Numbered from the stretch's first letter, positions 37,547-51,616 are shown. The stretch is 64,000 nt of DNA from Chlamydiales bacterium (GCA_041737255.1 JBGSSB010000073.1:7954-71953); one strand, 5' to 3'. Numbers and translations are program-made. The notes: a model not told the origin generated them from the letters alone.

Positions 37547-39286
37547 ATGTTACACATTTCCCAAAAGTGGCGATTAGATGGACTTTTAAATAACCAGTCA
37601 GCCACAGACTTTTCTAAAGATTGGATGAAACAGCTAAAAAAGTTTCAAGAGTCACTTACCAGGCCACAAGAGCTCGCTACAACCATTTTGCTTTTTCAAA
37701 CTTTGAGTGCTAGCTTTCGGGAGTTTTCTTCGTATGCAGGTGCTCTTTTTTCAGAGAATGTCCAGAATAAAGAAGCCCTTGCTCTTACCGCCAAAGCAGG
37801 CGAACTTGAAACGTATTTACAAAAAGCATCATCTGAGCTTGAAAAAAAGCTTTTTGAAGTCGCTGACCTCGAAAAATTTATACAAGAAAATGGTTTAGAG
37901 AGCATTAGCTTTTGCCTTACCGATCGATGCCAAAATGCAAAAGAAAAGATGTCTGTAGATAAAGAGGCCCTCAGCTCAGATCTTGCTCTTCATGGGTATC
38001 ACAGCTGGTATGAACTGTACAAGCAGGCGATAAGCAAAATGCGCTGTGATGTCACTACAGAAGGGGCAAAGGGGAGCTACTCCATAAGCCAACTTGAAAA
38101 CCTTTTTTCGCATGAAAACCAAGAAGTTCGAAAAAATGCTTTTTTGGCTTTGGAAAAAGCCTGCAAACAAGACGAGGCACTATTTTCACATATGCTTCGC
38201 TCTATTATTGGGTTTCGCCTAGAGCTTTATAAACATAGAGGATGGAAAAGCCCCTTACATAGCGCGCTGAAGTCAAATTATATGCAACAATCCACGCTTG
38301 ATATGATGTGGAAAAAGGTATCGGATGCTCAGCCTCACCTTCTGCGCTTTTTAGATGAAAAGGCAAAAATTTTTGGTGTTGATATGCTCTCTTGGTATGA
38401 TTTTGACGCCCCATTTCCACATGCCAACAGCCAAATTTCGTATGAAGATGCCGCAAAGATTATTATAGAGCTGTTTAGCGAAAAGAATAAAGAGCTAGGA
38501 GAGTTTGCCAAGGCCTGCTTTGAAAACAACTGGATAGAGGCAGAAAACAGACCAAATAAAGCCCCGGGTGGATTTTGCGCGCCATTTCCACAGTCTAAAC
38601 AATCCCGCATTTACATGAGCTATACGCCAACGATGCATAATCTTTTAGTACTCGCTCATGAGCTTGGTCACGCCTACCACAACCACGTCTGCTTTGAACA
38701 GCAAGAACTTGCTCAACATTTCCCCTACAGCCTTGCAGAAACAGCTTCAACAACATGTGAGCTTATTGTTCTTGACGGCTTAATTGCAAAAGCAAAATCT
38801 CAAAGTGAAAAAAAGTGGCTCTTCTACGAAAAAGCCCACCGCCATACCATGTTTTTTCTCAATATCCATGCACGATTTTTCTTTGAGCAGGAGCTCTTTT
38901 CAGAAGTATCTAAGGGCACATATCTTGATGCAGAAAAACTTTGCCATATTATGGAAAAGGCGCAAAAAACAGCCTATGGGGATCGCCTCGAAACCTATCA
39001 CCCCCACTTTTGGATTCCAAAAATACATTTTTATATCACAGATATCCCAAGCTATAACTTTCCTTATACCTTTGGATACCTTGTGAGCCAGGCTATCAAT
39101 GCAAAGGCAAAGCAAGAACCTACTTGGTTTACAAAAAACTACCAAAGCTTTTTACAAGATACAGGATCAATGAGCGTTGAGGACTTAGTTAAAAAACACT
39201 TTGGGCTTAACACAAACGAAGAGCTCTTTTGGCAAAAGGCTTTGGACAACGCCCTTTTAGATGTTACGGAGTTTTTAGCATTATGA
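37547..39286 (+). CDS. pepF: Oligoendopeptidase F (M3B metallopeptidase)
   Basis: The zinc motif is LAHELGHAYH and a downstream Glu lies in SLAETAS. The 579-aa length fits. Confidence 0.8.
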   Translation: MLHISQKWRLDGLLNNQSATDFSKDWMKQLKKFQESLTRPQELATTILLFQTLSASFREFSSYAGALFSENVQNKEALALTAKAGELETYLQKASSELEKKLFEVADLEKFIQENGLESISFCLTDRCQNAKEKMSVDKEALSSDLALHGYHSWYELYKQAISKMRCDVTTEGAKGSYSISQLENLFSHENQEVRKNAFLALEKACKQDEALFSHMLRSIIGFRLELYKHRGWKSPLHSALKSNYMQQSTLDMMWKKVSDAQPHLLRFLDEKAKIFGVDMLSWYDFDAPFPHANSQISYEDAAKIIIELFSEKNKELGEFAKACFENNWIEAENRPNKAPGGFCAPFPQSKQSRIYMSYTPTMHNLLVLAHELGHAYHNHVCFEQQELAQHFPYSLAETASTTCELIVLDGLIAKAKSQSEKKWLFYEKAHRHTMFFLNIHARFFFEQELFSEVSKGTYLDAEKLCHIMEKAQKTAYGDRLETYHPHFWIPKIHFYITDIPSYNFPYTFGYLVSQAINAKAKQEPTWFTKNYQSFLQDTGSMSVEDLVKKHFGLNTNEELFWQKALDNALLDVTEFLAL

Positions 39287-39957
39287 CGTTTGTTTTAGAG
39301 CCATCATGGCAAAAAGTGCTAAGCGAGGAGCTAAAAAAACCCTACGTTGAGCAGCTTGCATCCTTTATAGAGCAAGAGCGCGCCAAAAACGTTCCCATAT
39401 ACCCTCCAAAGGAACTTGTTTTTAATGCACTTAGCCAAACCCCATTTGAAAAAGTACGAGTTGTACTTGTTGGTCAAGACCCATACCATCGCCCAGGACA
39501 AGCACACGGCCTTTGTTTTAGCGTGCCAGAAGGTATAAAGCCACCACCATCACTAAAAAACATTTTCAAGGAACTAAAACAAGACCTTGGAATTCCCACA
39601 CCTTCTCATGGCTCCCTCTTGAAATGGGCAAAACAGGGAGTTTTGCTGCTAAACGCAACGCTTACCGTGCGTGAAGGCTCACCTCTTTCACACCATAAGC
39701 GCGGCTGGGAAACATTTACTGATGCTATCATACAATCTTTGGCACAAAAAAATGAGCCTATAATATTCGTTTTGTGGGGCAATAATGCCAGTAAAAAATG
39801 TGCACGTATTCCTGAGCTTTTACAAAATACGCACCACACAATTTTGACAGCCGCACATCCATCACCACTTTCGGCCTACAATGGATTTTTAGGGTGTGGT
39901 CACTTTTCAAAAATAAACAAAGTCCTAAAAGAGCCTATTGATTGGCGGCTCGACTAA
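39283..39957 (+). CDS. ung: Uracil-DNA glycosylase (family 1)
   Basis: LVGQDPYHRPGQAHGLCFSV, LLLNATLTV and HPSPLSA are present. The start ATG overlaps the pepF TGA (ATGA), and the listed 39229 start is an out-of-context extension. Confidence 0.9.
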   Translation: MTFVLEPSWQKVLSEELKKPYVEQLASFIEQERAKNVPIYPPKELVFNALSQTPFEKVRVVLVGQDPYHRPGQAHGLCFSVPEGIKPPPSLKNIFKELKQDLGIPTPSHGSLLKWAKQGVLLLNATLTVREGSPLSHHKRGWETFTDAIIQSLAQKNEPIIFVLWGNNASKKCARIPELLQNTHHTILTAAHPSPLSAYNGFLGCGHFSKINKVLKEPIDWRLD

Positions 39958-40876
39958 GCCGCTCGGAAACCGTCTTCCATAAGCCATCCACAGGAAACTG
40001 CATATCTACCCATGCGGCTTGGATGTTTTCAACATCAAGCTGCCGAAGCACATGATAAAGCCGATGGGCAGCTACTGTTGCATCTTCGGTTTCGGTTAGC
40101 GAAAAAATACGCTCAGCTCCTGGATAGTGCCGATTTGCAAAACCAACCACAACAGAAAGTTTTTTAGGGCAATCGACAAATGGAACATCTGACAAAACAA
40201 GGTGCGCCTTTGGAGCGTAGTGAGCAAGAAGCTGGCCGGGGCAAACCGGGGTGTCACTGTTTGCCTTACAGAGCAATGGAAGGTAGCCAAGCGTCTCAGC
40301 TAGTTGCTCTTGAGATACAGCACCAAGACGAGCAACCTGCCACATATCCTGATGAGCTATAACAATTGTTGATTCAACACCATGCTGACACATTCCACCA
40401 TCAAGCACAGGAAAATCTACACCAAAGTCATGTTCTACATGTTCTAGTTTTGTAGCCGATGGTGAACCGCTCAGATTTGCAGAAGGTGCAACCAGTGGTG
40501 AAACATGCTGTAAAAGCTGAAGAGTTTGACTTTGTTTGGGCATACGAAATGCAGCACTTGGCAAATTTGCACGCACAGCGGGTAGAATCGCTTTTTGCTT
40601 AACGGGAACCACAACGGTAAGGGGGCCTGGCCAAAAAGCCGATATGAGGGATTCTAGCCCCTTAGGCTTGGATGCGACGTACTGAAGACACTCTTCAGGA
40701 TTACCAATATGAAGAATCAATGGATTATGAGCTGGCCGACCTTTCAAAGAAAAGATCTGTTGCACAGCCTGTTCGTTGTTGGCGATTGCTGCAAGACCGT
40801 AAACAGTTTCGGTAGGAATGGCAACAACACCGCCCTGTATAAGCAGCTCTTTTGCTTTTTCAAGATTGATTTTCAT
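39935..40876 (-). CDS. Threonylcarbamoyl-AMP synthase (Sua5/YwlC type: YrdC domain plus Sua5 domain)
   Basis: Blocks are IPTETVYGLAA, KGRPAHNPLILHI, GPLTVV, SANLSG and VESTIV. The C-terminal extension of about 110 aa is typical of Sua5. Confidence 0.8.
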   Translation of the reverse strand: MKINLEKAKELLIQGGVVAIPTETVYGLAAIANNEQAVQQIFSLKGRPAHNPLILHIGNPEECLQYVASKPKGLESLISAFWPGPLTVVVPVKQKAILPAVRANLPSAAFRMPKQSQTLQLLQHVSPLVAPSANLSGSPSATKLEHVEHDFGVDFPVLDGGMCQHGVESTIVIAHQDMWQVARLGAVSQEQLAETLGYLPLLCKANSDTPVCPGQLLAHYAPKAHLVLSDVPFVDCPKKLSVVVGFANRHYPGAERIFSLTETEDATVAAHRLYHVLRQLDVENIQAAWVDMQFPVDGLWKTVSERLSRAANQ

Positions 40877-40978
40877 GCGGACATAACCTATTGATTAAGG
40901 ATACTTTATAACATACACGAGAAAACATGTCACATAAAATAATTTTTAATGTATAATATAAACAGAGACTAAAATCAC

Positions 40979-41398
40979 ATGGGGCATCTTATGATAACGA
41001 AAGAAGAGGTTAAGACAGCTCATGCCCGGCTTTTAACACTTCGCATTGCGCGAATTGGTAATGCAGCTCATGGCTTATTTTTACAGCCTGTAGATTTAGG
41101 CTCAAAGCTTCACTTAAGTACTGTTGTGTACAGGGGTGATAAATATATTCCCATAAGTGTACGAGAGTCTGTAAACTTTCACCTTGAAACGGATTATAAC
41201 CAAATACATACCTGGCTAAGCTTAGATGAAGAGCTTTTTCAAATTACCTTACATCACATTGGAATGTTTTCAAATGTAGGCCTTGAAGAGCTTTATGAAA
41301 TTGTTTCAGAGTTTGAAGATGCCGCATTTAAATGGCGTGAAATTTTCGATGAGAAGGATCGTCAAGATCTTATCCACGTGCCCTTGCAATCTAAATAG
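40979..41398 (+). CDS. Small acidic hypothetical protein (139 aa)
   Basis: An ORF with no recognisable motif. Its size and acidic C-terminus (EELYEIVSEFEDAAFKWREIFDEKD) are compatible with, but do not prove, a class I secretion chaperone. Confidence 0.4.
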   Translation: MGHLMITKEEVKTAHARLLTLRIARIGNAAHGLFLQPVDLGSKLHLSTVVYRGDKYIPISVRESVNFHLETDYNQIHTWLSLDEELFQITLHHIGMFSNVGLEELYEIVSEFEDAAFKWREIFDEKDRQDLIHVPLQSK

Positions 41399-41473
41399 AC
41401 AACATCCACAACAGAATATAAGAAGATAGTATATAGCTAAATTCTTCTTCTTCTTCTTTAGGTAGTGTGGATC

Positions 41474-41628
41474 TGTTCATAACCCTTGTTTTAGGTGATG
41501 TTCATAATGTTGATAACCTGATCATAGAAATGTCGATTAAATGTTTAGGCTGATTATAACTCAAGGGTCTGTTCACAAATTGGGGAAAAGGGCGAAGTTG
41601 TGAACATTGGTTTTTGTAGTTATGAACA
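41474..41628. repeat. Array of the 9-mer TGTTCAYAA: three direct copies followed by two inverted copies
   Basis: TGTTCATAA is at 41474-41482 and 41499-41507, and TGTTCACAA at 41570-41578. The reverse complements are TTGTGAACA at 41598-41606 and TTATGAACA at 41620-41628. A degenerate CTGAACA lies at 41724-41730. Confidence 0.85.
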
Positions 41629-41761
41629 TAGCCATTTAGAGCTCTTTACAACATAAGAAAAATAACAAGATACATAAGACCTTCCATATTGGGCGGGATA
41701 CCCAAGAGACACAAGGGGTGGGGCTGAACATCACGATTCTTTATTTGGCTATTTCGGTCTT

Positions 41762-44170
41762 TTAATTTTTGACCATGTCAGCGATATCTTGCAGACTACT
41801 GCATGCAAAGGTTGTGGGAGAGTGTTCGTGGCCGAGCTTGTTTGATGATAAGACGGGGTGTTCTAGACCTGCGAGCATTCTGCTTATTGCCAAGGGCTTT
41901 ATTCTGCCGTTCTCATAGACCTCTTTTTCGAGGTAGGCCTGGCGACGTGCGGCGTCTAGTGCTTGTTCAAAGTTACGCGATGTATCTTCAATTGGCACAC
42001 CGTTTCTGCGTAAAAAATCGCGTATCTGCTCGTGCGTTGTAGTTGGTTTTGCTTGTAGCGCTTGAAGATTTTGTCTTAAGGCATCACCCCAATCGCTTGG
42101 CATTCTTAAAAGCATCCATTCACAAAATTTTTGTCTTAGTTCCCTATCTTGCTGTAAAATTGGCTCAATGCAGTCTTTGATGATGGAGGCGACCGTGTAG
42201 TGTTTGAAAAACTCTTTTTCCGCTAAGGCCAGATCGAACTGTCCACAAAGATCCTGGTAGTACCGGCAGGTATCAAATCCTGGAATTTTGAGGCGACCTC
42301 CAAGCTGTGCAAGTAGGTAGTTGTAGTCGTTTCTGTTATTGCCTTTCATTGGATCAAGGCACTGCTCAAGAAGAAGCTCGCGGTGTGTGGCTAGTAAAAT
42401 ATAGAGCTCGTCTTCAAAAGAGGCTGGTTTGCTTGTGCATATGGTCCGGAAGAGTTTTGTGATAACTCCAAAATATCTTCCGGCGCAGTGTTCGCCAAGT
42501 TCAAGATCGACTATTTCGCGCAAAAATAGGTTTTTTTTCTCTTGAAGCTCTCTGTCTTGTGGGGAGTCTTGAAACGTAATAATGATATTTTTCAGGCAGC
42601 GCTCTTCCAGAAGTTCGTAGAAGCTGTTTTTTTTTGCCTCATCAGAGTTCATTAGAGCAGGCATTTCTGCTTTTCCATGAATGCGTGCTATAAAAGAACG
42701 GACGTGGTTCGTTAGTTCCTTTGCTGAAACTTGTTTGCCATAAACTTTAAGAGCGCCAGTAACGTACTGTAAAATTTCATCAAGGGGTACATCGCGAGAT
42801 GGTGGATAGGTTTCTAGCTGCGGTAGCGTCTTTTGTAGATGAGCTTTAGAAAGGTTAAGGTAGGAAAACTCAACAAGGTCAAGACTGCAATTTGGGTATT
42901 TATTTTTAAGCTTTTTAAAATAGTCAAAAAAACGACTGATGGGCATTCGCTCTACAACCTTGCTTGCCAAGAGCGAGTCTTGAAAAAGCAAAGCAATTTC
43001 AAATGGGTTTGGTGCGCTGAGTCCTCGAATAAGTGTATCGGGTGATGCTGCGCAATCTGCCAAGAAGGCACCTATCGAGCCCCTCATGAGGGGCTCGCGT
43101 GATGGCTTATAGTGCGACAGGACTTTGCAGTAAAACTCCGTAGATCGCACTCTATCTTCGTCTAACAGGGCTGGAATAAGAAATGCTGATGTCCCGGGTT
43201 TTATAGTTTTTGTATCTTCGTCAATTTCTTGATTAACTCGCGATACATCGGCACCTTTTTGTAACAGTAATAGTGCTACATCAGCTTTATAGTTTCGACA
43301 CGCATCATGAAGGGGTGTGTTAAGGCCCCTGTCTATGGCGTTGACGTCGGCGCCGCGATTAACCATTTCTTCAACAAGTCGACTAAAACCAGCTCCAGAA
43401 GCCATGTGAATAGGGTATTTTCCATCTTTTTGAAGGTGTAGGTTTGCTCCCACCTCTACTAATACAATCGCTACTTTTTCTTGACCTTCTTTGATGGCGT
43501 GGAAAAGAAGTGTGGTTGCGTGCTCTTTTACTTTTTCACCAAAGGCAGCAAGCGGATCTGCACCCAGGTCAATAAATTGCCGGCAAAGCTTGTAGTGTTT
43601 TTGCGCAAAAGCAAGCGTTAACAAAGGGGTGTAGTGGCCAACTGCTTTTGCTATAGATTCCCCTTCTTTGATTAAATCAAGCGCAGCATGAAGTGTAGCG
43701 TTTTGGCACGCTACACTTACTGGGTGTTGTTCTAGCATCAAAGATTCGCGCTTTAAAAATCCACCTCCAAGCTCCTGCAAGCTCTTGTGGAGCTCTTTTA
43801 ATGAGTCATCAGTAGAATTTTTTTGCAAGGCGCGCTTTATGATTCTATCTATAAATAAACAGGTGCGGCTTGCAGCACGGCATGTGCTGATAATGCGCTC
43901 TTTGGGTGTTGTTGGAGATGGTGATGATATCATGTGGACAATGCTACGAGCAGCTTCAACGATATGTTTTGTGTTCTCTATAAGGTTGAAGGATGTGCCA
44001 AAGCGAAATAGCCTTCCTAATGCACTGCTTGAGGTTTCTAAGGCAAGGCCATGTCCGCTTGCATAAACAACTTCACAATCATCAATATCTTCGATGTGTG
44101 TAGCAATATGGGTGGCATCAAATTGTTCAAAAAAATTATCGTTTTGACTTACTTGTATATAGTGAGTCAT
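41762..44170 (-). CDS. Ankyrin-repeat protein (802 aa) with a large uncharacterised C-terminal region
   Basis: ANK units lie at about residues 165-320 (TPLLTLAFAQKHYKLCRQFIDLGADP; TTLLFHAIKEGQEKVAIVLVEVGANL; YPIHMASGAGFSRLVEEMVNRGADVN; NTPLHDACRNYKADVALLLLQKGADV). About 470 further residues have no motif I can name. Confidence 0.75.
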   Translation of the reverse strand: MTHYIQVSQNDNFFEQFDATHIATHIEDIDDCEVVYASGHGLALETSSSALGRLFRFGTSFNLIENTKHIVEAARSIVHMISSPSPTTPKERIISTCRAASRTCLFIDRIIKRALQKNSTDDSLKELHKSLQELGGGFLKRESLMLEQHPVSVACQNATLHAALDLIKEGESIAKAVGHYTPLLTLAFAQKHYKLCRQFIDLGADPLAAFGEKVKEHATTLLFHAIKEGQEKVAIVLVEVGANLHLQKDGKYPIHMASGAGFSRLVEEMVNRGADVNAIDRGLNTPLHDACRNYKADVALLLLQKGADVSRVNQEIDEDTKTIKPGTSAFLIPALLDEDRVRSTEFYCKVLSHYKPSREPLMRGSIGAFLADCAASPDTLIRGLSAPNPFEIALLFQDSLLASKVVERMPISRFFDYFKKLKNKYPNCSLDLVEFSYLNLSKAHLQKTLPQLETYPPSRDVPLDEILQYVTGALKVYGKQVSAKELTNHVRSFIARIHGKAEMPALMNSDEAKKNSFYELLEERCLKNIIITFQDSPQDRELQEKKNLFLREIVDLELGEHCAGRYFGVITKLFRTICTSKPASFEDELYILLATHRELLLEQCLDPMKGNNRNDYNYLLAQLGGRLKIPGFDTCRYYQDLCGQFDLALAEKEFFKHYTVASIIKDCIEPILQQDRELRQKFCEWMLLRMPSDWGDALRQNLQALQAKPTTTHEQIRDFLRRNGVPIEDTSRNFEQALDAARRQAYLEKEVYENGRIKPLAISRMLAGLEHPVLSSNKLGHEHSPTTFACSSLQDIADMVKN

Positions 44171-44177
44171 ACAAAGC

Positions 44178-44507
44178 CTATGCTGATTTTTTGCGCCAGC
44201 TCAGAGCAAACCCTGCAATTACTATGGTAAGAAGACACAATAATCCTGATGGCATAAACTTAACGGCGTACCATCTGTAGGCGAAAAAAAGCGTGAGTAG
44301 AGCTAAAAGAGTAAAGATACTTCTGTCGCCAATTGTTGGGTAGAAGCGAATGAGAAAAAGTGAGCTTAAAAGCAAGATGGCAAAAATTGAGCTCATAAAA
44401 AGTGATGCAAGGCTTCCGGCCATGATGTAGCCAATAACGCCTCCGATTAAAAGTAGAAGGCTGTAGCCCGTTATAAGGGTGTCGAAGCGGTCTAGTAGAT
44501 TTTTCAT
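44178..44507 (-). CDS. TMEM14/UPF0136-family small membrane protein
   Basis: Four TM segments with the block LLLLIGGVIGYIMAGSLASL. The ATG at 44507 is preceded by an AGAGG SD, and the listed 44570 start is an extension. Confidence 0.6.
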   Translation of the reverse strand: MKNLLDRFDTLITGYSLLLLIGGVIGYIMAGSLASLFMSSIFAILLLSSLFLIRFYPTIGDRSIFTLLALLTLFFAYRWYAVKFMPSGLLCLLTIVIAGFALSWRKKSA

Positions 44508-44677
44508 GGTACCTCTTGCTTGTAATTTTAGCTCCGGCTGTGGAAAATCGCCCCCACAATAAAAGGTCACTATTTATGACCATTTCGAACTGCTGGATCT
44601 TAGGATAAAATCAATTTCATTCTGGCTAAAAAGGCCATTGGTTGGCAACATGTTTTAAGATCAAGTGAGATTTATAT

Positions 44678-45679
44678 ATGAGCCAACCTGTTTTTACAAC
44701 TACTCAATTTCCATTTATCCGCCCACGTAGATTGAGGCGACATGGTTGGTTACGGGATATGGTGCAAGAAAACAGCGTTAGCCCTCAGGATCTTGTCTGG
44801 ACAGTAATTATTCGAGAAGATGATGTGGATCCGATTATTCCAGGGATGCCCGGAGCTCCTAGATTGTCAATTTCTGAACTTATAGAATCTGCTAAAGAAG
44901 CAAGAGACCTTGGTATATGTGCGCTTGCATTTTTTCCACACGTTTCACAAGGTTTAAAAAATGAGCAGGCCGACGAGGCGTTAAATCCAAGATCTCTTAC
45001 AGTCCGTGCAATTGAAGCTTTAAAGACTCACTGTCCTGGAATCGGCGTTATATCGGATGTGGCGTTGGATCCCTTTACATCTCATGGTTTTGATGGGCTA
45101 ATGAAGGCAGATCAGGTTGATAACGATGCAACACTCGAGCTTCTTGCAAAAAGTGTTTTGCTGCAAGCGGCCGCAGGGGCTGATGTCATCGCGCCATCAG
45201 AGATGATGGATGGTCGAATTAAAGTTTTACGCGCGGCTCTTGATGCTGCGGGGTATCATGATGTCGCCCTTCTTTCATACTCAGCAAAGTATGCATCGGC
45301 CTTTTACGGACCCTATCGAGGGGGTATTGGATCTCTAGGGAATTTAGCAAAAGGCGACAAAAAAACATTTTATCTTAACCCTGCAAATAAAGCCGAAGCC
45401 CTACGCGAGGTCTCACAAGATTTACTTGAGGGAGCTGATATGGTTATGGTAAAGCCGGGGCTGCCATACCTGGATGTGGTTTCAGCCATTAAAGAGACCT
45501 TTCAGGTGCCAACGTTTGCTTTTCACGTAAGTGGAGAGTATGGATCTTTAAAGTTAATGCACGAGGCGGGGTTTATGGACTTTGACAAAGCCTTTGCCGA
45601 GGTGCTTCTCTCATTTAAACGTGCAGGATGTGACGGTATTTTCACCTATGGTGCATTAGAATACGCCCGTAGTTTATAA
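44678..45679 (+). CDS. hemB: Porphobilinogen synthase (delta-aminolevulinate dehydratase)
   Basis: RPRRLRR is present, the active-site lysine regions are YSAKYASAFYGPYR and MVMVKPGLPYLDV, and the tail reads GCDGIFTY. Confidence 0.92.
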   Translation: MSQPVFTTTQFPFIRPRRLRRHGWLRDMVQENSVSPQDLVWTVIIREDDVDPIIPGMPGAPRLSISELIESAKEARDLGICALAFFPHVSQGLKNEQADEALNPRSLTVRAIEALKTHCPGIGVISDVALDPFTSHGFDGLMKADQVDNDATLELLAKSVLLQAAAGADVIAPSEMMDGRIKVLRAALDAAGYHDVALLSYSAKYASAFYGPYRGGIGSLGNLAKGDKKTFYLNPANKAEALREVSQDLLEGADMVMVKPGLPYLDVVSAIKETFQVPTFAFHVSGEYGSLKLMHEAGFMDFDKAFAEVLLSFKRAGCDGIFTYGALEYARSL

Positions 45680-45779: not shown

Positions 45780-48014
45780 ATGACCCCGATTAATGACTCT
45801 GTTTTTAAAGTGCCCCACCCCCCATTACTTGGCTTAGAAACTCTTGCCACTGCAGCAAGCGATAGAGAGCGCCTAACATATGCCTCAAAATGTATTGATG
45901 TGATCCAGACTGTAGAGTTTGAGGAAGAGCGTATAGAAGATTTTTTCTTTGGTGTTTGTGGGGAAGTTTCTGAAGCAGGGCTACAGCACTGTTTTTCTGA
46001 AGAAGAATTAGAAAAGGTGTATGCATTTTTAGAATGGTATCACCTACTTTTAATGGGGTGCTTGCCCGATCCAAGTGGTTGTAAGGAAGAGCTAGATTGT
46101 GTCTTGAAATTTTTCAATCTTGATAGCTGCCTTGATATTTTACACTCAAAAAATAGCAAGCTTGATTTGACTACTAGTCGTTTTACGCTTGAGTGCTTAC
46201 TTACTATTATGGATGGCGCAAACGAGGCAAGGGAAGGACACTATAACGCTTTTCAGGATAAGGTGTGCAAGCTATTGAGTTACCACAGCTCAAAAGAGGT
46301 GGTTTTAGCTAATATAGAAATGCTTTTAACTGAGAAGCCATCTTTACTCTTTACAGAAGCCATATCGAACATGGAGCAAAACGAACGATTTCGATGGGCG
46401 TTGTTTATTTCAATTGTTTCCCAGTACAGCAATGAATTGGATTTTATTGAGCTCTTGGCAAAACAGGTAGCAGATAAAGAGCAGGGCTTCCCTCAGCATC
46501 TACAATCACATCTTATACACCTTTTGGCTGGAGTGAAAAAAAATTACTTAATGAGGCCTTGGGCGTGTTCTGGAGGCACGTCTTCTTATGGTTTGTCGCC
46601 GATTTTATTTGCCAAATTAGATGTTCCTGGGTTGCCAAATTGGATGCCAAATGGAGGTAATACCTGCTACATTTCAGCAACACTATGGCCACTATATTTA
46701 TTGATAGGTGACAAAATTAAAGAAAGTCTTTGTGCTGCTGACGTTGTAGATGCCCCTACCTCAACCCCTGTCGGCGCCTTTAAAGCTTTTTATTTAAAAA
46801 TGGCAGCTTCTGAAAGTACAAACATCACAGCAAAAGAAGTAAGTGAGTTTAGAAAAGCTATGCAGATAGCATTTCCGAGTAGATTTGCTTCATCTTTAAC
46901 ATGTGGGCAAGAAGATGCCTATGAGTTTTTGGCAGGAATTTTGCAGGAGCTGCTGGGCTTAGATTTTCAGGTTGACAAACCAGACGGATTTTATATTTTA
47001 CACAAGTTTAAGCGGACAAATGCTAAGTCCTTAGAAGGTTCAGAATATTATGATTACACCGCAGCACTTGCTCCTTCTTTTAGCCCCCAGCACTCACATA
47101 TCCTTGATATACCACTTGATGTGGGCCGTATGGTACCTGTAGCTTTGAGTGAACTTATTACGACTACTCGGCAAAATGGGCAAGTGGATCGAAATGTTCG
47201 ATTGTACCCTCGTGAAGTACTGAGTGAAAGCAATGTCGATACATATAATATTTTGCCAAAGCATCAAACCATTTCTGTTTATCACTCTGAGCAGTATCAG
47301 GTGGAATCAAGAGATCTTGCTCCAGAGTATTTTTGCGCTCGAATTAAGCGCTTTTCTTCTGACTCGCTTCAAAAAAGAAACGATCTTGTCCAGCCAAATG
47401 CAACCCTGGAATTTAGCTGCAGAGAAAATGAGCAGCAAACGGTACCCTATGATCTCGTTGCCATGACTATACATAGTGGGACAACTATTAACATGGGACA
47501 CTATTACACCTATATTAGACACCAAGTACAAGGTGAGTGGCGAATTTTTAAGTACGACGATATACAAGGCCCTGAACTTTGCGTTGATGAGCAAAAAGCA
47601 TTGCTTGATGTATCGAAAAGCGGGTATATCTTTTATTATAAAAAAAGAAAAGATGGTCTTGAATCCCCTCCTCAATTTATTTTCCCCGATAAGCTTCAGG
47701 AGGCAAAGGCGTGGGTGGCAACAAACGTATCAGGCAGCTTTTTTGTTGATGAAAAAAAGGGCTCATTGATGGCTGAGGATGATCCCACAGCTGAGTCTAA
47801 GGCTCTTAAGGGATTAGCTGAGGTTTTGGGAAAATCTGTCTATGTTATAGATCCAGTAAGAGACAGAGATTTGTTGGTGCTAGATAATGGTTACCCAATT
47901 CCTGGCGACTCTTTTTGCCATGGTGAAGAGTTTTCTCTTGGAGGAATTCAGTACCTATTTAAGCAGTCGGATAAATCGTATGTGTTGTTGACCAGTTTGA
48001 AGTGCCCGGATTGA
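45780..48014 (+). CDS. Eukaryote-type ubiquitin-specific protease (USP/UBP, peptidase C19) domain protein
   Basis: The Cys box is GLPNWMPNGGNTCYISATLWPL (Cys296), the QEDAYEF block is present, and the His box is YDLVAMTIHSGTTINMGHYYTYIR...WRIFKYDDIQG (His574). About 280 aa on the N-terminal side and about 120 aa on the C-terminal side are unassigned. Confidence 0.75.
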   Translation: MTPINDSVFKVPHPPLLGLETLATAASDRERLTYASKCIDVIQTVEFEEERIEDFFFGVCGEVSEAGLQHCFSEEELEKVYAFLEWYHLLLMGCLPDPSGCKEELDCVLKFFNLDSCLDILHSKNSKLDLTTSRFTLECLLTIMDGANEAREGHYNAFQDKVCKLLSYHSSKEVVLANIEMLLTEKPSLLFTEAISNMEQNERFRWALFISIVSQYSNELDFIELLAKQVADKEQGFPQHLQSHLIHLLAGVKKNYLMRPWACSGGTSSYGLSPILFAKLDVPGLPNWMPNGGNTCYISATLWPLYLLIGDKIKESLCAADVVDAPTSTPVGAFKAFYLKMAASESTNITAKEVSEFRKAMQIAFPSRFASSLTCGQEDAYEFLAGILQELLGLDFQVDKPDGFYILHKFKRTNAKSLEGSEYYDYTAALAPSFSPQHSHILDIPLDVGRMVPVALSELITTTRQNGQVDRNVRLYPREVLSESNVDTYNILPKHQTISVYHSEQYQVESRDLAPEYFCARIKRFSSDSLQKRNDLVQPNATLEFSCRENEQQTVPYDLVAMTIHSGTTINMGHYYTYIRHQVQGEWRIFKYDDIQGPELCVDEQKALLDVSKSGYIFYYKKRKDGLESPPQFIFPDKLQEAKAWVATNVSGSFFVDEKKGSLMAEDDPTAESKALKGLAEVLGKSVYVIDPVRDRDLLVLDNGYPIPGDSFCHGEEFSLGGIQYLFKQSDKSYVLLTSLKCPD

Positions 48015-48138: not shown

Positions 48139-48891
48139 CTATTTGACAGTACTTTTGTTTGTGGCAAAAAAGAGGAATTTCTTTAGACAAGAGGCGACTT
48201 CCTGGCGCTCTTCGTCATTTAGTTCATCTTCATGTCGTTTAAAATAGGTGATAAGTCGTTCCAGATTCGTTAAAAGGTTTTGGCAGCTACGAACACCCCT
48301 TTTGTCTTTTGAAGGCAATGGGAAGGCTGTACGGATGCGCTCTAGCATCTCTTGTTTTGTTTCACCGTTGTAGGATGAGATGATCAACTTTTTTTCGTCT
48401 AAAGGTGCCTGACGGCTTGCTAAGGTATACATAACTTGGCGAGGAAGGCTTTCTGCTTTTGTTTTTAGCTCGTGTGGGAGTAGATCGATTAATTCGTAGT
48501 ACATGAGGAAGTTATAGGGCGTTTGACGGTTGCCATAGGTTGCAACTAGCCATGCACTAAAGGCGCCTTCTTTGTAACTTTTGAGAATACGTTGAGCTCG
48601 CATGATGCGCTCACCATGCAAAATAGCCGCTTGGTTTGTAATGGCTTTGATTTCAGAGGTAATGCTAAAGAGCGCCTGAAGATCAGATCCAATGTCATGG
48701 GCTGTATCTGGCGTATGTTTATGCAGAATGTCTTCAAGGCGCAATTTTTCGAGATCTTCGAGCTCGACCGATTTAAAGAGACCGGAAAACCCTGTAAGGC
48801 GACCATCATTGGATTGTTTGGCAAGAGCCTTAATTTTTTGAGATCCGCCCGATGAAAAACGCCCCTCTAACATCTCTTCTAATTTTGTCAT
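48139..48891 (-). CDS. pGP6-D-like protein (chromosomal paralogue of chlamydial plasmid protein pGP6-D; presumed partition adaptor)
   Basis: The core block ILHGERIMRAQRILKSYKEGAFSAWLVATYGNRQTPYNFLMYYELIDLLPHELKTKAESLPRQVMYTLASRQ is collinear with the pGP6-D sequence as I recall it (LLGEKIYNARKIL...FSSWIELVF...AYNALAYYELFINLP...IPYKSAYILAAR). Confidence 0.7.
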   Translation of the reverse strand: MTKLEEMLEGRFSSGGSQKIKALAKQSNDGRLTGFSGLFKSVELEDLEKLRLEDILHKHTPDTAHDIGSDLQALFSITSEIKAITNQAAILHGERIMRAQRILKSYKEGAFSAWLVATYGNRQTPYNFLMYYELIDLLPHELKTKAESLPRQVMYTLASRQAPLDEKKLIISSYNGETKQEMLERIRTAFPLPSKDKRGVRSCQNLLTNLERLITYFKRHEDELNDEERQEVASCLKKFLFFATNKSTVK

Positions 48892-49661
48892 TATTTCAAC
48901 CTCTGGACAATTTCTTTAGCAAGGTTTTTAAAATCTTCTGCTGCACGGCTTGCTTTATCTAGTTTTTCAACTTCAAAAATGGGTTTTCCAAATACTGTCG
49001 CTGAGCTTACACTAACATCTCGGCGCACTTTTGTGCTGAAGCACCCGCCTGGAAAGCTTTTGTCTATAATTTTAAGAAAGCCACTGTTGTTTTTTGCCCG
49101 GGCATTCCAAAATGAAATAACTACTCCCAGTATTTCCATGGGGTGGCGCTCTGCTATAGTGCTCATAAAATCTGAAAGGCGCTCTAGCCCTTTTACACTA
49201 TAAAATTCGCAAGTGGCGCAAACTACGGCGTGATTTGCGGCAATGAGTGCCGATTCTGTTAGCCAGCAAAGCGATGGAGGGGTGTCGATAATAATATAGT
49301 CGTAGTTAACGGTTTCGAGAATCCGTTTAAGCCTTTCGTGTGAATACCTGTCTGCTGCAAGCGCCCCTGTTACTTCCACTCGCTCAAGCCAGGTATCTGC
49401 TGGGACAAGGTCAAGATTTGGAATGCAGGTTTTCTGAATTACCTCTTTTACCTCTTTTGTCCCTAGCAAAACCGGTGCCATGCTATCTACTTGATCAGGA
49501 TCAAGCCCAAGTCCCATGGTAAGGTTGGCTTGAGCATCAAAGTCTACCAGCAGTACCTTTTTCTTGTGAAATTTGGCAAAAGCGGCTCCAAGATGGAGGC
49601 TTGTGGATGTTTTGGCTGTTCCACCTTTGAAGCTGCTAACTGCTAGTATCTGTTTTTTCAT
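48891..49661 (-). CDS. parA: ParA/MinD-family partition ATPase (pGP5-D-like)
   Basis: The deviant Walker A is FKGGTAKTSTSLHLGAA. Also present are VLLVDFDAQANLT and IIIDTPPS. Confidence 0.85.
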   Translation of the reverse strand: MKKQILAVSSFKGGTAKTSTSLHLGAAFAKFHKKKVLLVDFDAQANLTMGLGLDPDQVDSMAPVLLGTKEVKEVIQKTCIPNLDLVPADTWLERVEVTGALAADRYSHERLKRILETVNYDYIIIDTPPSLCWLTESALIAANHAVVCATCEFYSVKGLERLSDFMSTIAERHPMEILGVVISFWNARAKNNSGFLKIIDKSFPGGCFSTKVRRDVSVSSATVFGKPIFEVEKLDKASRAAEDFKNLAKEIVQRLK

Positions 49662-51616
49662 TGCGAGGATCCTTCGCTTGCTTTTTTAGTAGATAATAGC
49701 GACTCAAGGCATTTTTGAGCTCTTTCTTGTTTTAATAAATCAAGTAAAGCCTCTAGCTGCATCTCGCCGTGTATTTCGTTGTTTCGGGTGCGAACATTGA
49801 CGGTTTTATTTTCAACTTCCTTGTCACCTATGGTGAGGATGTAGTTGTATTGTGCCATTTGTGCTTCGCGTACCTTTTTTGACACCGACTCGCTTGTGTC
49901 ATCAAGATATACTTCAAAGCCACTGTTTCTAAACATCTCCGAAACAGTTTTACCAAACTCTACATGCCTGTCGGCAATGGAGATAATGGCAACTTGAGAT
50001 GGGCTAAGCCAAAGAGGGAATCTGCCTGCATAAAATTCGATAAGCGATCCAAAGAAGCGCTCAACAGAACCGTAAATAACCCTATGTAGCATGATAGGGC
50101 GCGCAGCTGATCCGTCTGGGGCTGTGTATTCTAGCTCAAAGCGCTCTGGAAGTGACATGTCAAGCTGAATGGTTCCACATTGCCAGGTTCTTCCTAAGGC
50201 ATCGTGGACGCGAAGATCAATTTTTGGTCCATAAAAGGCGCCGTCGCCTTCTTGAACCACGTAAGGTTTTCCAAATATATCAAGCGCTTGTTTAAGTGAG
50301 TTTGTAGTAAGCTCCCACGCTTCATCTGAGCCTATGGTGTTTTTATCTGGTCGTGTTGAAAGGGCGATATCATATGTAAGCCCAAATGTGGAGTACATTT
50401 CATCAACAAGCTTTAATATGTTAAATATTTCGCTTTGGATGTCTTGTGGCTGCATAAAGATGTGTGCGTCATCCTGGTGGAAGCAGCGAACGCGGAAAAG
50501 CCCTGAAAGCGATCCTGAAGGCTCAAAACGGTGGACGTGACCAATTTCTGCAACTCTCCATGGAAGCTCTCTGTAGCTGTGTTTTTTTGCCTTGTAAAAG
50601 AGCATAGCTCCAGGGCAGTTCATAGGTTTCACTGCAAATTCACGCTCTTCTACGCAGCAGGTATACATATGTTCTCTGTAATTTTCCCAGTGACCTGATC
50701 GCTCCCAGAGTTCCTTAATCATAAGGCTTGGAGTCTTAATTTCTACGTAGTTTGCTCGCTTGTGGCACTCTCTCCAGTATTCAAGCAGTCTGTTCCATAT
50801 AATCATGCCTTTGGGATGAATAAAGGGCATGCCTGGCGCTTCTTCTTTAAGAGAAAAGAGGTCAAGTTTTGGTCCCAACATTTTGTGGTCGCGTTTTTTT
50901 GCTTCTTCTAATCTGAACAGGTAGTCTTTAAGCAGCTTTCTGTCTGGGAAGGAAATGGCATAAATACGTGTAAGCATTTCATTTTTCGAATCTCCCCTCC
51001 AATATGCGCCCGATGTCTTGAGAATTTTGAGCGCTTTAATTTTGCCTAAACGCGGTAGATGTGGCCCGCGGCAAAAATCGAAAAACTCGCCCTGAGAATA
51101 GCCTGTGAGGGCTTGATCTTCAGGAATGCCTTCAATAAGTTCTTGCTTGTATTTGTTGTTTTCAAAACGAGATACGGCTTCTTTTTTTGATTGAAACACA
51201 TATCTCTGACTTGCAAAATTTTCTTCACAGATTGCTTGCATTTCTTTTTCGATACGATCAAAGTCGGCATCAGAAATTGTTAAATCAGCAAAATCGTAGT
51301 AGAGGCCGTTTTCGATTGGGGGACCGATCGTTGGTTTTGCGTTTGGATAGAGCCGAAGAACTGCCTGAGCTAGCACGTGAGCAGTTGTGTGCCAGAAAAC
51401 TTCTTTTCCTTCGGTGTCGTCAAATGACAAAAACTTGAGGCTGTCGCCCTCATTAAGAGGCGTGTCTAAATCGGAGATTTTGTCATTAATGATGACAGAA
51501 ACGGCCTGATGGGGGCCTTTTAAATTGAGCTTTTCAGCTAGATCTTGTGCTTTTGTTCCTGGTGGAACATCTAGGCTGGAAAAGCCGTTTTTGGGATCGG
51601 CATATCGTACTTGCAT
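49658..51616 (-). CDS. thrS: Threonine--tRNA ligase
   Basis: The protein has a TGS domain, the editing-domain motif HTTAHVLAQA, class II motifs (RVRCFHQDDAHIF; GTIQLD...) and an anticodon-binding tail. Confidence 0.95.
   Translation of the reverse strand: MQVRYADPKNGFSSLDVPPGTKAQDLAEKLNLKGPHQAVSVIINDKISDLDTPLNEGDSLKFLSFDDTEGKEVFWHTTAHVLAQAVLRLYPNAKPTIGPPIENGLYYDFADLTISDADFDRIEKEMQAICEENFASQRYVFQSKKEAVSRFENNKYKQELIEGIPEDQALTGYSQGEFFDFCRGPHLPRLGKIKALKILKTSGAYWRGDSKNEMLTRIYAISFPDRKLLKDYLFRLEEAKKRDHKMLGPKLDLFSLKEEAPGMPFIHPKGMIIWNRLLEYWRECHKRANYVEIKTPSLMIKELWERSGHWENYREHMYTCCVEEREFAVKPMNCPGAMLFYKAKKHSYRELPWRVAEIGHVHRFEPSGSLSGLFRVRCFHQDDAHIFMQPQDIQSEIFNILKLVDEMYSTFGLTYDIALSTRPDKNTIGSDEAWELTTNSLKQALDIFGKPYVVQEGDGAFYGPKIDLRVHDALGRTWQCGTIQLDMSLPERFELEYTAPDGSAARPIMLHRVIYGSVERFFGSLIEFYAGRFPLWLSPSQVAIISIADRHVEFGKTVSEMFRNSGFEVYLDDTSESVSKKVREAQMAQYNYILTIGDKEVENKTVNVRTRNNEIHGEMQLEALLDLLKQERAQKCLESLLSTKKASEGSSQ

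What the first reader, a model, noticed from the sequence alone, without database searches (positions are those of the whole stretch)
41399..41761. Convergent spacer with an ordered 9-mer array (three direct, then two inverted), DnaA-box-like cores and a (TTC)5 tract, close to hemB and the parA operon
Both flanking genes end here, so no promoter is required, yet the spacer is 362 bp long and highly organised. TGTTCATAA occurs at 41474 and 41499 and TGTTCACAA at 41570. The exact reverse complements follow: TTGTGAACA at 41598 and TTATGAACA at 41620. A degenerate sixth copy lies at 41724. Five exact matches to a 9-mer with one degenerate position within 155 bp, in a 3-direct plus 2-inverted layout, is very unlikely by chance. 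The left edge carries two inverted ATCCACA cores: ACATCCACA at 41402-41410 and TGTGGATCT at 41466-41474, each 7 of 9 against the DnaA box TTATCCACA. They bracket an AT-rich stretch that contains (TTC)5 at 41442-41456. The half-site TGTTCAC is one T short of the parS half-site TGTTTCAC. The third and fourth copies form TGTTCACAA-N19-TTGTGAACA. From memory, oriC in Chlamydiaceae genomes has been placed next to hemB, which lies 3 kb away here. A ParA/pGP6-D-like operon with no known centromere lies 6.5 kb away. The plausible readings are iterons or DnaA boxes of a replication origin, a partition (centromere-like) site, or an operator array for an unknown regulator.
Basis: partly seen in the sequence, partly recalled or inferred. 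Interest (0 to 1): 0.65.

Follow-up and report, generated by a model that had tools for sequence, protein, structure and literature searches.

The report
Chlamydial chromosome replication origin (oriC)
The organised spacer is most likely the chromosome's replication origin in an uncultured environmental chlamydia: an easily melted AT-rich patch flanked by binding sites for the initiator protein DnaA, in a layout shared by at least a hundred related lineages but with an unusual (TTC)n repeat where other bacteria carry "DnaA-trios".

Summary
Five of the six TGTTCAYAA copies in the 64-kb window lie within 155 bp (chance about 1e-14), and the (TTC)5 tract and the two inverted ATCCACA cores are where stated. 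The window's cumulative GC-skew minimum (40,438) lies 1 kb from the spacer. In five related assemblies the minimum falls 0-1.3 kb from the orthologous spacer, even in a genome where hemB is on another contig. The 9-mers are lineage variants of the DnaA box. Orthologous positions in relatives read TTATCAACA or TTATCGACA, and the consensus over 102 distinct lineages is TTATNAACA. DoriC already uses TTATCAACA for Parachlamydia and Simkania.

The left 230 bp (41399-41630) is a conserved origin core. It consists of a box, a GAAGAAGA tract, a TATATA-rich centre, (TTC)n, a 6-nt spacer and tandem boxes TGTGGATCT/TGTTCATAA. These are followed by an array of forward boxes about 11 bp apart, then inverted boxes. 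This resembles E. coli oriC (opposed DnaA arrays beside a DUE) and the Firmicute basal unwinding system. The trinucleotide repeat on the polarity-correct strand is TTC, however, not an A-centred trio.

The centromere, operator and RNA readings are not supported. No binding or unwinding has been shown; all evidence is computational.

The parts
41370..41378 (+). TTATCCACG, 8/9 to the E. coli DnaA box, inside the last codons of the upstream ORF. A possible peripheral box; membership is uncertain.
   Evidence: The orthologous site in L002 reads TTATACACA, but conservation could equally be due to the protein coding.
41402..41410 (+). Left flanking DnaA-type box ACATCCACA, with its CCACA end facing the AT-rich centre.
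   Evidence: TCCACA is invariant in 8 orthologous spacers. In other lineages the box reads TTTTCCACA or TTTCCACA. It is present in 31% of 102 modules against 5% of shuffles, at 54.5 bp (IQR 53-56) from the right box; the window distance is 55 bp.
41411..41441 (.). AT-rich centre (77% AT) containing the purine tract AAGAAGA (41420-41426), which is the inverted partner of the TTC tract. Proposed site of first strand opening (DUE).
   Evidence: 41415-41455 is among the 0.17% least stable 40-mers of the window. The TATATA-rich centre and GAAGA tract recur across lineages. As single-stranded DNA, 41399-41485 folds as a palindrome with z = -2.7.
41442..41459 (+). (TTC)5TTT pyrimidine tract, in the position that DnaA-trios occupy in the basal unwinding system.
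   Evidence: conserved in all 8 orthologues. Runs of 3-6 units occur in 89 of 102 modules.
41460..41465 (.). 6-nt G-rich spacer AGGTAG between the repeat and the boxes.
   Evidence: The modal spacer length is 6 nt in 102 modules; the consensus is cag..g.
41466..41482 (-). Tandem boxes TGTGGATCT (41466-41474) and TGTTCATAA (41474-41482) at an 8-nt offset. This is the most conserved element of the origin.
   Evidence: TGTGGATCTGTTnATAAC is nearly invariant in the clade. The general form TGTGGAAnTGTTnATAA was found in at least 120 metagenome stretches.
41499..41578 (-). Array of forward boxes of the TGTnnAYAA family: 41499 TGTTCATAA, 41508 TGTTGATAA, 41519 TGATCATAG, 41531 TGTCGATTA, 41542 TGTTTAGGC, 41551 TGATTATAA and 41570 TGTTCACAA. 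Start-to-start spacing from 41499 to 41551 is 9, 11, 12, 11 and 9 bp (11-12 bp from 41508 to 41542). Proposed DnaA-oligomerisation array facing the DUE.
   Evidence: The box positions align across 8 orthologues while the middle dinucleotide varies. The phylum-level consensus has three forward boxes 11 bp apart. The motif is 48-fold enriched in the spacers against the flanks.
41598..41628 (+). Two inverted boxes, TTGTGAACA (41598-41606) and TTATGAACA (41620-41628), forming the opposed array.
   Evidence: Orthologues read TTATCAACA or TTATCGACA. The consensus over 102 modules has 4-5 inverted TTATnAACA boxes 11-12 bp apart.
41631..41761 (.). Remainder of the spacer. No conservation was shown for it, and it is probably not part of the origin core.
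   Evidence: This stretch was not aligned across relatives (the alignment stops at 41660, and its columns beyond the last inverted box are mostly gaps). No terminator-like site was found. The '41724 copy' lies here.

Best explanation
Window 41399-41630 is the chromosomal replication origin (oriC) of this environmental chlamydia. The 9-mers are lineage-specific DnaA boxes with consensus TTATNAACA; the window mostly has TTATGAACA.

Proposed mechanism (inferred, not shown): DnaA binds the tandem high-conservation boxes at 41466-41482. It then oligomerises along the roughly 11-bp-phased forward array (41499-41578). The two inverted boxes (41598-41628) nucleate an opposed sub-complex, as in the left and right halves of E. 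coli oriC. The complex opens the AT-rich centre (41411-41441). This centre is bracketed by two inward-facing boxes 55 bp apart and by a GAAGAAGA/TCTTCTTC inverted repeat.

The (TTC)5 tract lies where DnaA-trios lie in the Firmicute basal unwinding system: tandem boxes, a short G-rich spacer, a 3-nt repeat, then AT-rich DNA. I therefore infer that the DnaA oligomer holds the pyrimidine strand as single-stranded DNA, by analogy also with the T-rich upper strand of the E. coli DUE.

Shown: the sequence anatomy, its conservation, and its coincidence with the GC-skew switch. Inferred: DnaA binding, the site of unwinding, and which strand is engaged.
For: (1) GC skew. Skew is negative over 1-40000 and positive over 40001-64000. 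The cumulative G-C minimum is at 40438 and the keto minimum at 41027.

(2) Skew in relatives. In independent related assemblies the minimum lies at or near the orthologous spacer: L020 6752 against spacer 6451-6721, L026 5964 inside 5872-6104, and L022, L003 and L002 within 1-1.3 kb. In the assembly where hemB is on another contig (L006) there is no switch at hemB. So the switch tracks the spacer.

(3) Box identity. Orthologous boxes in relatives read TTATCAACA or TTATCGACA, which is 8/9 to the E. coli box. DoriC's lineage-specific boxes are TTATCAACA (Parachlamydia, Simkania), TTTTCAACA and [AT]TTTCCACA (supplement of PMC8287927; PMC2275245).

(4) Enrichment. TGTNNAYAA occurs at 18.2 per kb in 8 spacers against 0.38 per kb in 162 kb of flanks. 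The window's densest 300-bp bin is this spacer.

(5) AT-rich element. It is in the top 0.17% of least stable 40-mers.

(6) Conservation of non-coding DNA. It holds across 8 close relatives, across L028 and L029, whose pGP6-D homologues are 49-55% identical to the window's, and across 102 distinct metagenome versions sharing the same order of elements.

(7) Neighbours. Recurrent neighbours across lineages are hemB, ung, orf139 and thrS-parA-pGP6D. This matches the published placement of chlamydial oriC by skew, next to hemB and away from dnaA (PMC3932018, PMC2878342).

(8) Skew in metagenome loci. Skew rises across the module in 29 of 42 loci with at least 1.5 kb on both sides (p = 0.01).
Against: There is no experimental evidence of any kind: no DnaA binding, unwinding, marker frequency or autonomous replication.

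The window comes from an 86-kb metagenome contig, so the genome-wide skew and the copy number of the module per genome could not be checked.

The strict E. coli box (1 mismatch or fewer) occurs only twice here. The published A-centred DnaA-trio rule is not met next to the conserved boxes.

Thirteen of 42 metagenome loci do not show the expected rise in skew. Several contigs carry two copies of the module (L028, L077, L091, L093, L095).

The metagenome set was ascertained with a pattern that already required TCTTCTT and the 17-nt core. Conservation of those parts in that set is therefore by construction.
Confidence: 0.85

Rival explanations
1. The box array is a centromere-like partition site bound by the partner of the nearby ParA, the pGP6-D/CT583-family protein (UPF0137). 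It would serve this role instead of, or in addition to, origin function.
For: The thrS-parA-UPF0137 operon is closely linked to the spacer. It is 6.4 kb away in the window, separated only by a Tmemb_14 gene in L020, and directly abutting it in L029. Origin-proximal centromeres are the rule in bacteria (general knowledge). No canonical ParB or parS was found in the window, so the ParA has no known site.
Against: The boxes are plainly DnaA-box derivatives: a TGTGGAT core, and orthologues reading TTATCAACA or TTATCGACA. They match DoriC's chlamydial DnaA boxes. In other lineages the module sits next to hemB or ung without parA nearby. No similarity was found to any PLSDB plasmid, including chlamydial plasmids that encode pGP5-D/pGP6-D. 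An AT-rich centre with a 3-nt repeat is an unwinding feature, not a centromere feature.
Confidence: 0.06
2. The array is an operator or regulatory array for an unknown transcription factor, or DnaA acting as a titration or regulatory site like datA or DARS rather than as an origin.
For: Clusters of DnaA boxes outside oriC are known in E. coli (datA, DARS; PMC4585315, listed). Several contigs carry two copies of the module.
Against: In the window both neighbours converge on the spacer, so there is no promoter to regulate, and no promoter-like site was found in it. Neighbour orientation differs between lineages while the module stays the same. The coincidence with the skew switch in six assemblies is not expected for a titration site.
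Confidence: 0.06
3. The spacer encodes a small structured RNA, or it is only a pair of terminators for the convergent genes.
For: Convergent spacers often hold terminators. The left end can fold as a hairpin.
Against: No Rfam family was found at gathering score or at E<0.3, and no tRNA or tmRNA. RNAalifold pairs only the inverted boxes, with an unfavourable covariation term of +0.77. No terminator-like site was found in the spacer. The conservation pattern is of 9-mers with free middle bases in both orientations, which fits protein sites rather than helices.
Confidence: 0.02

Closest known systems
Predicted oriC of Chlamydiaceae and other Chlamydiales in DoriC/Ori-Finder (placed by GC skew, upstream of hemB; lineage boxes TTTTCCACA, TTTTCAACA, TTATCAACA)
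   Same: The origin lies at the cumulative-skew minimum, is not linked to dnaA, and is linked to hemB. That link is direct in four lineages found here and 3 kb in the window. The box family is the same: the window's TTATGAACA is one mismatch from DoriC's TTATCAACA, and the flanking boxes elsewhere read TTTTCCACA.
   Different: Those entries are coordinate predictions with a motif count. Nothing I could find (six literature searches bearing on chlamydial origins) describes the ordered module: inverted boxes 55 bp apart, a GAAGAAGA/TCTTCTTC dyad, (TTC)n, tandem boxes, then phased forward and inverted arrays. I could not fetch Chlamydiaceae DNA to test whether the pathogens share it.
E. coli oriC (DUE followed by left and right DnaA-oligomerisation regions with boxes in opposite orientation)
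   Same: An AT-rich unwinding element lies at one edge. The nearest box reads 5'-TGTGGAT on the T-rich strand, like R1. An array of same-orientation boxes at about 11-bp phasing is followed by boxes in the opposite orientation. A gap of about 26 bp after the first boxes corresponds in position to the IHF site between R1 and R5M.
   Different: The box consensus is TTATNAACA rather than TTATNCACA. A second, inward-facing box lies on the far side of the DUE. There are no 13-mer repeats or GATC clusters. There are 8-9 forward boxes and only 2 inverted boxes in this clade. The origin is not next to gidA/mioC or dnaA.
Basal unwinding system (BUS) of Bacillus subtilis and other bacteria: tandem DnaA-boxes 6 and 7, a GC cluster, DnaA-trios (3'-GAT-5')n, then AT-rich DNA (PMC6669920, PMC8287927, PMC10721633)
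   Same: The geometry is the same. A distal 9-nt box and a proximal box lie at an 8-nt offset, as in the B. halodurans entry AATAGGTGT|TTGAGTGT|TCGG|GAT.... Then come a short G-rich spacer (modal 6 nt), 3-6 copies of a trinucleotide, and AT-rich DNA.
   Different: On the strand fixed by box polarity the repeat is 5'-TTC-3', whose centre base is T or C in every frame. It is not the A-centred 5'-TAG-3', so the defining (NAN) x3 rule fails. The A-centred GAA repeat lies on the other strand, with the polarity of the box on the far side of the DUE, 33 bp away.
parS/ParB chromosomal centromeres
   Same: Short inverted-repeat DNA sites near the origin and near a parA gene.
   Different: There is no 16-bp parS palindrome and no ParB domain protein in the window. 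The box's middle bases are unconstrained. The sites are asymmetric 9-mers arranged head to tail.

Membership tests
DnaA-dependent chromosomal origin (oriC) | Lies at the switch of GC skew (cumulative G-C minimum) | tested here: met
   The window minimum is at 40438 and the keto minimum at 41027; the spacer starts at 41399. The same holds in L020, L026, L022, L003 and L002. There is no switch at the unlinked hemB locus L006.
DnaA-dependent chromosomal origin (oriC) | Cluster of at least 3 DnaA boxes with mean spacing under 100 bp | tested here: met
   Met with the lineage motif. There are 4 exact TTATNAACA and 6 exact TGTNNAYAA matches in 155 bp, plus weaker aligned boxes. With the strict E. 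coli box at 1 mismatch or fewer there are only 2.
DnaA-dependent chromosomal origin (oriC) | AT-rich DNA unwinding element beside the boxes | tested here: met
   41411-41441 is 77% AT, and 41415-41455 is in the least stable 0.17% of 40-mers.
DnaA-dependent chromosomal origin (oriC) | Non-coding sequence conserved among relatives, element by element | tested here: met
DnaA-dependent chromosomal origin (oriC) | Adjacent to dnaA or dnaN | tested here: not met
   No dnaA or dnaN was found among the window ORFs. This feature is known not to hold in Chlamydiales (PMC2878342), so it is not disqualifying.
DnaA-dependent chromosomal origin (oriC) | DnaA binds the boxes, unwinds the DUE, and the fragment supports initiation | not testable with these tools
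   This needs purified DnaA1 and DnaA2, footprinting, P1 or KMnO4 assays, and marker-frequency analysis.
Basal unwinding system (DnaA-box / DnaA-trio module) | One or two DnaA boxes oriented toward the unwinding site | tested here: met
   TGTGGATCT and TGTTCATAA lie at an 8-nt offset with the TGTGG end toward the AT-rich DNA. The polarity convention was checked against the E. coli entry in the supplement.
Basal unwinding system (DnaA-box / DnaA-trio module) | At least 3 consecutive A-centred trinucleotides (3'-NAN-5') within 16 nt of the box, on the strand where the box reads 5'-TGTGGATAA-3' | tested here: not met
   The repeat there is (TTC)5. The published rule, run on the spacer, finds nothing next to the boxes at 41466 and 41474.
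Basal unwinding system (DnaA-box / DnaA-trio module) | Short GC-rich spacer between box and repeat, with AT-rich DNA beyond the repeat | tested here: met
   AGGTAG (6 nt) in the window. The modal spacer is 6 nt with consensus cag..g in 102 modules, and a TATATA-rich region lies beyond.
parS/ParB centromere | 16-bp palindrome TGTTNCACGTGAAACA, and a ParB (ParBc) protein | tested here: not met
   No match with 3 mismatches or fewer in or near the spacer, and the window count is at chance. The ParA partner is UPF0137, and no ParB domain was found.
Plasmid-type iteron origin | Direct repeats of 17-22 bp at regular spacing next to a rep gene | tested here: not met
   The units are 9 bp and occur in both orientations. 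There is no rep gene. There is no BLAST match to 72,556 plasmids.
Structured non-coding RNA | Rfam match or covarying helices | tested here: not met

The most novel reading that the evidence does not exclude
In Chlamydiota the origin's unwinding module keeps the geometry of the bacterial basal unwinding system but replaces the A-centred DnaA-trios with a pyrimidine (TTC)n repeat. In many lineages, including this one, the module is two-sided: inward-facing DnaA boxes 55 bp apart and a GAAGAAGA/TCTTCTTC dyad surround a TATATA centre. This would imply that chlamydial DnaA recognises single-stranded DNA differently from the Bacillus and E. coli paradigm. Alternatively, the work may be divided between the two paralogues DnaA1 and DnaA2, or the origin may open symmetrically, for example through a cruciform or hairpin.
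Probability: 0.3. Interest if true: 0.8.

Novelty: new variant of a known kind. Interest (0 to 1): 0.6.

Why it matters
I found no report of an experimentally dissected chlamydial replication origin in the searched library; in the papers read here, origins in this phylum are placed only by GC skew and motif counts. The phylum is also unusual in having two dnaA genes, neither at the origin (PMC2878342). This finding gives a base-resolved, testable architecture: which 9-mers are boxes, where the DNA should open, and which strand should be held. The architecture is shared by at least 102 distinct lineages found in metagenomes. It is also a natural test of how general the DnaA-trio rule is, because the module has BUS geometry with a different trinucleotide. 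In practical terms it offers a sequence signature for locating oriC on fragmentary chlamydial MAG contigs, where skew alone is too noisy.

Tried and rejected
- Rfam at gathering score and at permissive E-value, ARAGORN, and promoter/terminator scans found nothing in the spacer.
- RNAalifold on 8 orthologues paired only the inverted boxes, with no covariation.
- The hemB-upstream spacer (44571-44677) was considered as the 'real' oriC. It is 107 bp with no module and a single TGTGGAAAA inside the neighbouring CDS, so I rejected it. The skew switch follows the other spacer even when hemB is unlinked.
- The divergent spacer 40877-40978 is AT-rich but holds a good sigma-70-like promoter for orf139 and no boxes.
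- A canonical BUS search using the published rule found only two weak, off-target candidates.
- A parS search was at chance.
- BLAST of the spacer against PLSDB plasmids found no match.
- I tested whether orf139, the gene that always flanks the origin in this clade, might be an origin-binding factor. Its model instead resembles class I type III secretion chaperones.
- L027, a more distant relative, has a group II intron where the spacer should be, and no module was found there.
- Six literature searches bearing on chlamydial origins found no experimental characterisation of a chlamydial oriC.
- Sequencing-run look-up gave only assembled DNA contigs, with no raw reads and no RNA. Marker-frequency and transcription tests were therefore impossible.

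Full report
**1. The observation**

TGTTCAYAA has six matches in the 64-kb window, five of them between 41474 and 41628. Shuffles give 1.69 +/- 1.37 per window, and none of 100 reaches six. A Poisson estimate for five or more in 155 bp is about 1e-14.

The spacer lies between two convergent ORFs, 40979-41398 (+) and 41762-44170 (-, an ankyrin-repeat protein). Pfam confirms hemB at 44678-45679. It also confirms a ParA (48891-49661) with a pGP6-D/UPF0137 partner (48139-48891).

The 'sixth copy' at 41724 is only 6/9 and lies in the part of the spacer that was not aligned across relatives. I do not count it.

**2. Position relative to replication**

GC skew is negative in every 2-kb bin but one (+0.004 at 34-36 kb) from 1 to 40000 and positive in every bin from 40001 to 64000. 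The cumulative G-C minimum is at 40438 and the cumulative keto minimum at 41027. These are 1 kb and 0.4 kb from the spacer. In Chlamydiales the cumulative-skew minimum is the accepted marker of the origin. The two dnaA genes are not linked to it (PMC2878342). No dnaA, dnaN or parB was found among the window's ORFs.

**3. Close relatives**

A hemB-based scan of species-representative genomes, plus look-ups of homologues of the 139-aa ORF, gave eight independent orthologous spacers: the window, L002, L003, L004, L020, L022, L024 and L026. The left 230 bp aligns throughout. In order, the alignment shows:
- an invariant TCCACA box just after the stop codon;
- an AGAAGA tract;
- an AT-rich centre;
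- (TTC)n;
- a short spacer;
- the nearly invariant TGTGGATCTGTTnATAAC;
- a series of TGTnnAYAA boxes at fixed positions, those in the middle of the array 11-12 bp apart start to start;
- one or two boxes in the opposite orientation.

The middle dinucleotide of orthologous boxes changes freely (TC, TG, CG, CT, GC, TT). In L004, L020 and L024 the boxes read TTATCAACA and TTATCGACA, which is 8/9 to the E. coli DnaA box. The relaxed motif occurs at 18.2 per kb in the eight spacers against 0.38 per kb in 162 kb of flanking DNA.

Where at least 5 kb is available on both sides, the cumulative-skew minimum lies close to the spacer:
- L026: inside the spacer;
- L020: 31 bp from its end;
- L022, L003 and L002: 1-1.3 kb away.

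In the L020 assembly hemB is on a different contig (L006). There the skew rises monotonically with no switch. The switch therefore follows the spacer, not hemB.

**4. Distant relatives**

The right-hand neighbours vary. They include an ankyrin gene, Tmemb_14, hemB, a UCH-like gene, or directly the parA-pGP6D-thrS operon.

Through homologues of the pGP6-D-like protein I reached two more distant genomes.
- L029 (55% identity) has the same module directly between the UPF0137 stop and the orf139-like stop, with nine relaxed boxes in 300 bp.
- L028 (49% identity, a 2.67-Mb contig) has two copies of the module flanking an ankyrin gene, with the local skew minimum between them.

A pattern scan of metagenome contigs used TCTTCTT-N4-10-TGTGRANNTGTTNAYAA. 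My own rough estimate, not a tool result, was that only a handful of chance hits would be expected. Most hits show features the pattern did not ask for:
- a TATATA-rich centre;
- a GAAGA purine tract (45% against 7% in shuffles);
- a TTTTCCACA-type box 54.5 bp (IQR 53-56) upstream of the right box (31% against 5%); the window distance is 55 bp;
- arrays of boxes downstream.

After removing sequences more than 90% identical, 102 distinct modules remain. Their gapped consensus reads as follows: TATATA, TCTTCTTCTT, cag..g, TGTGGAa.TGTT.ATAAct, about 26 nt, three forward TGTT.ATAA boxes 11 bp apart, then four or five inverted TTAT.AACA boxes 11-12 bp apart. A frequency matrix from 491 box instances outside the anchored core gives T-G-T-T(55%)-N-A-T/C-A-A(67%).

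Neighbouring genes detectable by tblastn were ung (15 loci), orf139 (5), parA, pGP6D and thrS (3-4 each) and hemB (4). In those four hemB loci the module lies 100-170 bp upstream of the gene. Skew rises across the module in 29 of 42 loci with enough flank (binomial p = 0.01). This is a modest result, as expected for short flanks.

Two caveats apply to this set. It was ascertained with part of the module, so conservation of that part is by construction. Most loci were not assigned taxonomically beyond these neighbour genes.

**5. What the boxes are**

Ori-Finder proposed TTTTCCACA as the chlamydial DnaA box (PMC2275245). The supplementary table of Pelliciari et al. 2021 lists the DoriC lineage motifs:
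- [AT]TTTCCACA for C. trachomatis;
- TTTTCAACA for C. abortus, C. psittaci, C. felis and C. pecorum;
- TTATCAACA for Parachlamydia and Simkania.

The window's TTATGAACA is one mismatch from the last of these and fits the TTATNAACA consensus derived here. The flanking boxes belong to the TTTTCCACA type.

**6. The unwinding region and the BUS comparison**

The AT-rich stretch 41415-41455 is among the 0.17% least stable 40-mers of the window. It is bracketed by two boxes whose CCACA/TGTGG ends face inward, and by the inverted repeat AAGAAGA...TCTTCTT. As single-stranded DNA, 41399-41485 folds as a palindrome (z = -2.7).

The same supplementary table fixes the polarity rule of the basal unwinding system. 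Trios lie on the strand where the box reads 5'-TGTGGATAA-3', 5' of the box (E. coli entry AATAGGTGT|CCCGTCACGC|TAGGATTAT, written 3'->5').

On that strand the window reads 5'-(TTC)5TTT-AGGTAG-TGTGGATC-TGTTCATAA-3'. The geometry is that of a BUS. There are tandem boxes at an 8-nt offset, as in the B. halodurans entry. There is a short G-rich spacer, with a modal length of 6 nt. A trinucleotide repeat of 3-6 units follows, then AT-rich DNA.

The repeat is TTC, however. Its centre base is never A, so the defining (NAN) x3 rule fails. The A-centred GAA repeat is on the other strand and has the polarity of the left box, 33 bp away, beyond the 16-bp limit.

I therefore do not file the module as a canonical BUS. 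I do think it works like one, or like the E. coli arrangement in which the T-rich strand of the DUE is held by DnaA bound to the adjacent array. The published BUS predictions for chlamydiae are weak (3-6 trios, low scores). That is consistent with the canonical trio being absent from this phylum's origins.

**7. Rival readings**

*Centromere for ParA/pGP6-D.* The close linkage to the parA operon favours it. Four points count against it: the DnaA-box identity of the sites, lineages where the module is next to hemB or ung with no parA nearby, the absence of any plasmid match and the absence of any parS. The two functions are not mutually exclusive, and a separate site for the ParA partner may still lie nearby.

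*Operator or titration array.* This is disfavoured by the convergent gene arrangement, the lack of promoter-like sites, and the coincidence with the skew switch in six assemblies.

*RNA gene or terminators.* There is no Rfam hit, no covariation and no terminator-like site.

**8. Known or new**

That chlamydial origins lie at the skew minimum, often next to hemB, and contain TTTTCCACA- or TTATCAACA-type boxes is already in DoriC/Ori-Finder and in genome papers. I could not find two things in the literature available to me (six searches bearing on chlamydial origins). One is the ordered, widely conserved architecture. The other is the substitution of (TTC)n for DnaA-trios within BUS geometry. 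I rate the finding as a new variant of a known kind.

All functional statements are inferences from sequence. Nothing here shows binding, unwinding or initiation.

Noticed in passing
window 40979-41398 (+): The 139-aa ORF that always flanks the origin in this clade has no Pfam or NCBIfam match. Its family has only 23 clusters at 64% identity or more, with weaker homologues (30-40%) next to the module in 5 metagenome loci. Its AlphaFold model (pLDDT 70.5) matches almost exclusively class I type III secretion chaperones (SycE, SpcU, ExsC, SycH, VecA; Foldseek probability 0.9-0.99, E about 0.01). It is probably a T3SS chaperone, perhaps for the neighbouring ankyrin protein.
   Followed up: partly
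window 48139-51616 (-); L020 6722-10609; L029 7267-10738: The thrS-parA-UPF0137 (pGP6-D/CT583 family) operon is tightly linked to the origin. It is 6.4 kb away here, separated only by a Tmemb_14 gene in L020, and directly abutting the origin spacer in L029. No ParB or parS was found, so the DNA site of this ParA system remains unknown.
   Followed up: partly
L028 ~17440-17780 and ~20100-20540; L077 (two copies 5.3 kb apart); L091 (2.1 kb); L093 (460 bp); L095 (220 bp): Several contigs carry two copies of the origin module in the same orientation. In L028 they flank an ankyrin gene, with the local skew minimum between them. These could be duplicated or bipartite origins.
   Followed up: partly
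L027 15403-17233: In this more distant relative a group II intron reverse transcriptase gene sits where the origin spacer is expected, between the ankyrin genes and the orf139-like gene. A second copy of the same gene lies 15 kb away. No origin module was detected in the 20-kb locus.
   Followed up: partly
L002 ~6975-7150: The non-conserved right part of the orthologous spacer in L002 holds a long, near-perfect inverted repeat: AACCGCAGAGAAAACAGCCGAGAGCGAGAGAGAGGAAATACAGAG ... and its complement. It is absent from the window and could be a hairpin terminator or a small inserted element.
   Followed up: no
window 41483-41498 and the equivalent +18..+44 of the module in other loci: The gap of about 26 bp between the tandem boxes and the next box has a conserved length. 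It often contains a T-tract followed by an A-tract (32% against 8% in shuffles), and in some lineages a TTCTCTAGAGAA palindrome. It occupies the position of the IHF site between R1 and R5M in E. coli oriC.
   Followed up: partly
window 15112-16458, 22906-24228, 25374-26438, 34060-35259, 36270-37331, 41762-44170, 45780-48014: The window contains many eukaryote-like or effector-like genes: an LRR/F-box-like protein, a MORN-repeat protein, a tyrosine phosphatase, a Fic-like protein, a Schlafen AlbA_2 protein, an ankyrin protein and a UCH-type deubiquitinase-like protein. This is typical of amoeba-associated environmental chlamydiae.
   Followed up: no
window 39000-45000: Near-identical DNA is present in assembled hot-spring, biofilm, freshwater, mine-drainage and wastewater metagenomes (up to 87% of sampled words). 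No RNA runs or raw reads were available.
   Followed up: no
window 51554-51569: A palindromic TGTTCCTGGTGGAACA, with 3 mismatches to parS, lies inside the 5' part of the thrS gene. The window-wide count of such matches is at chance level.
   Followed up: no
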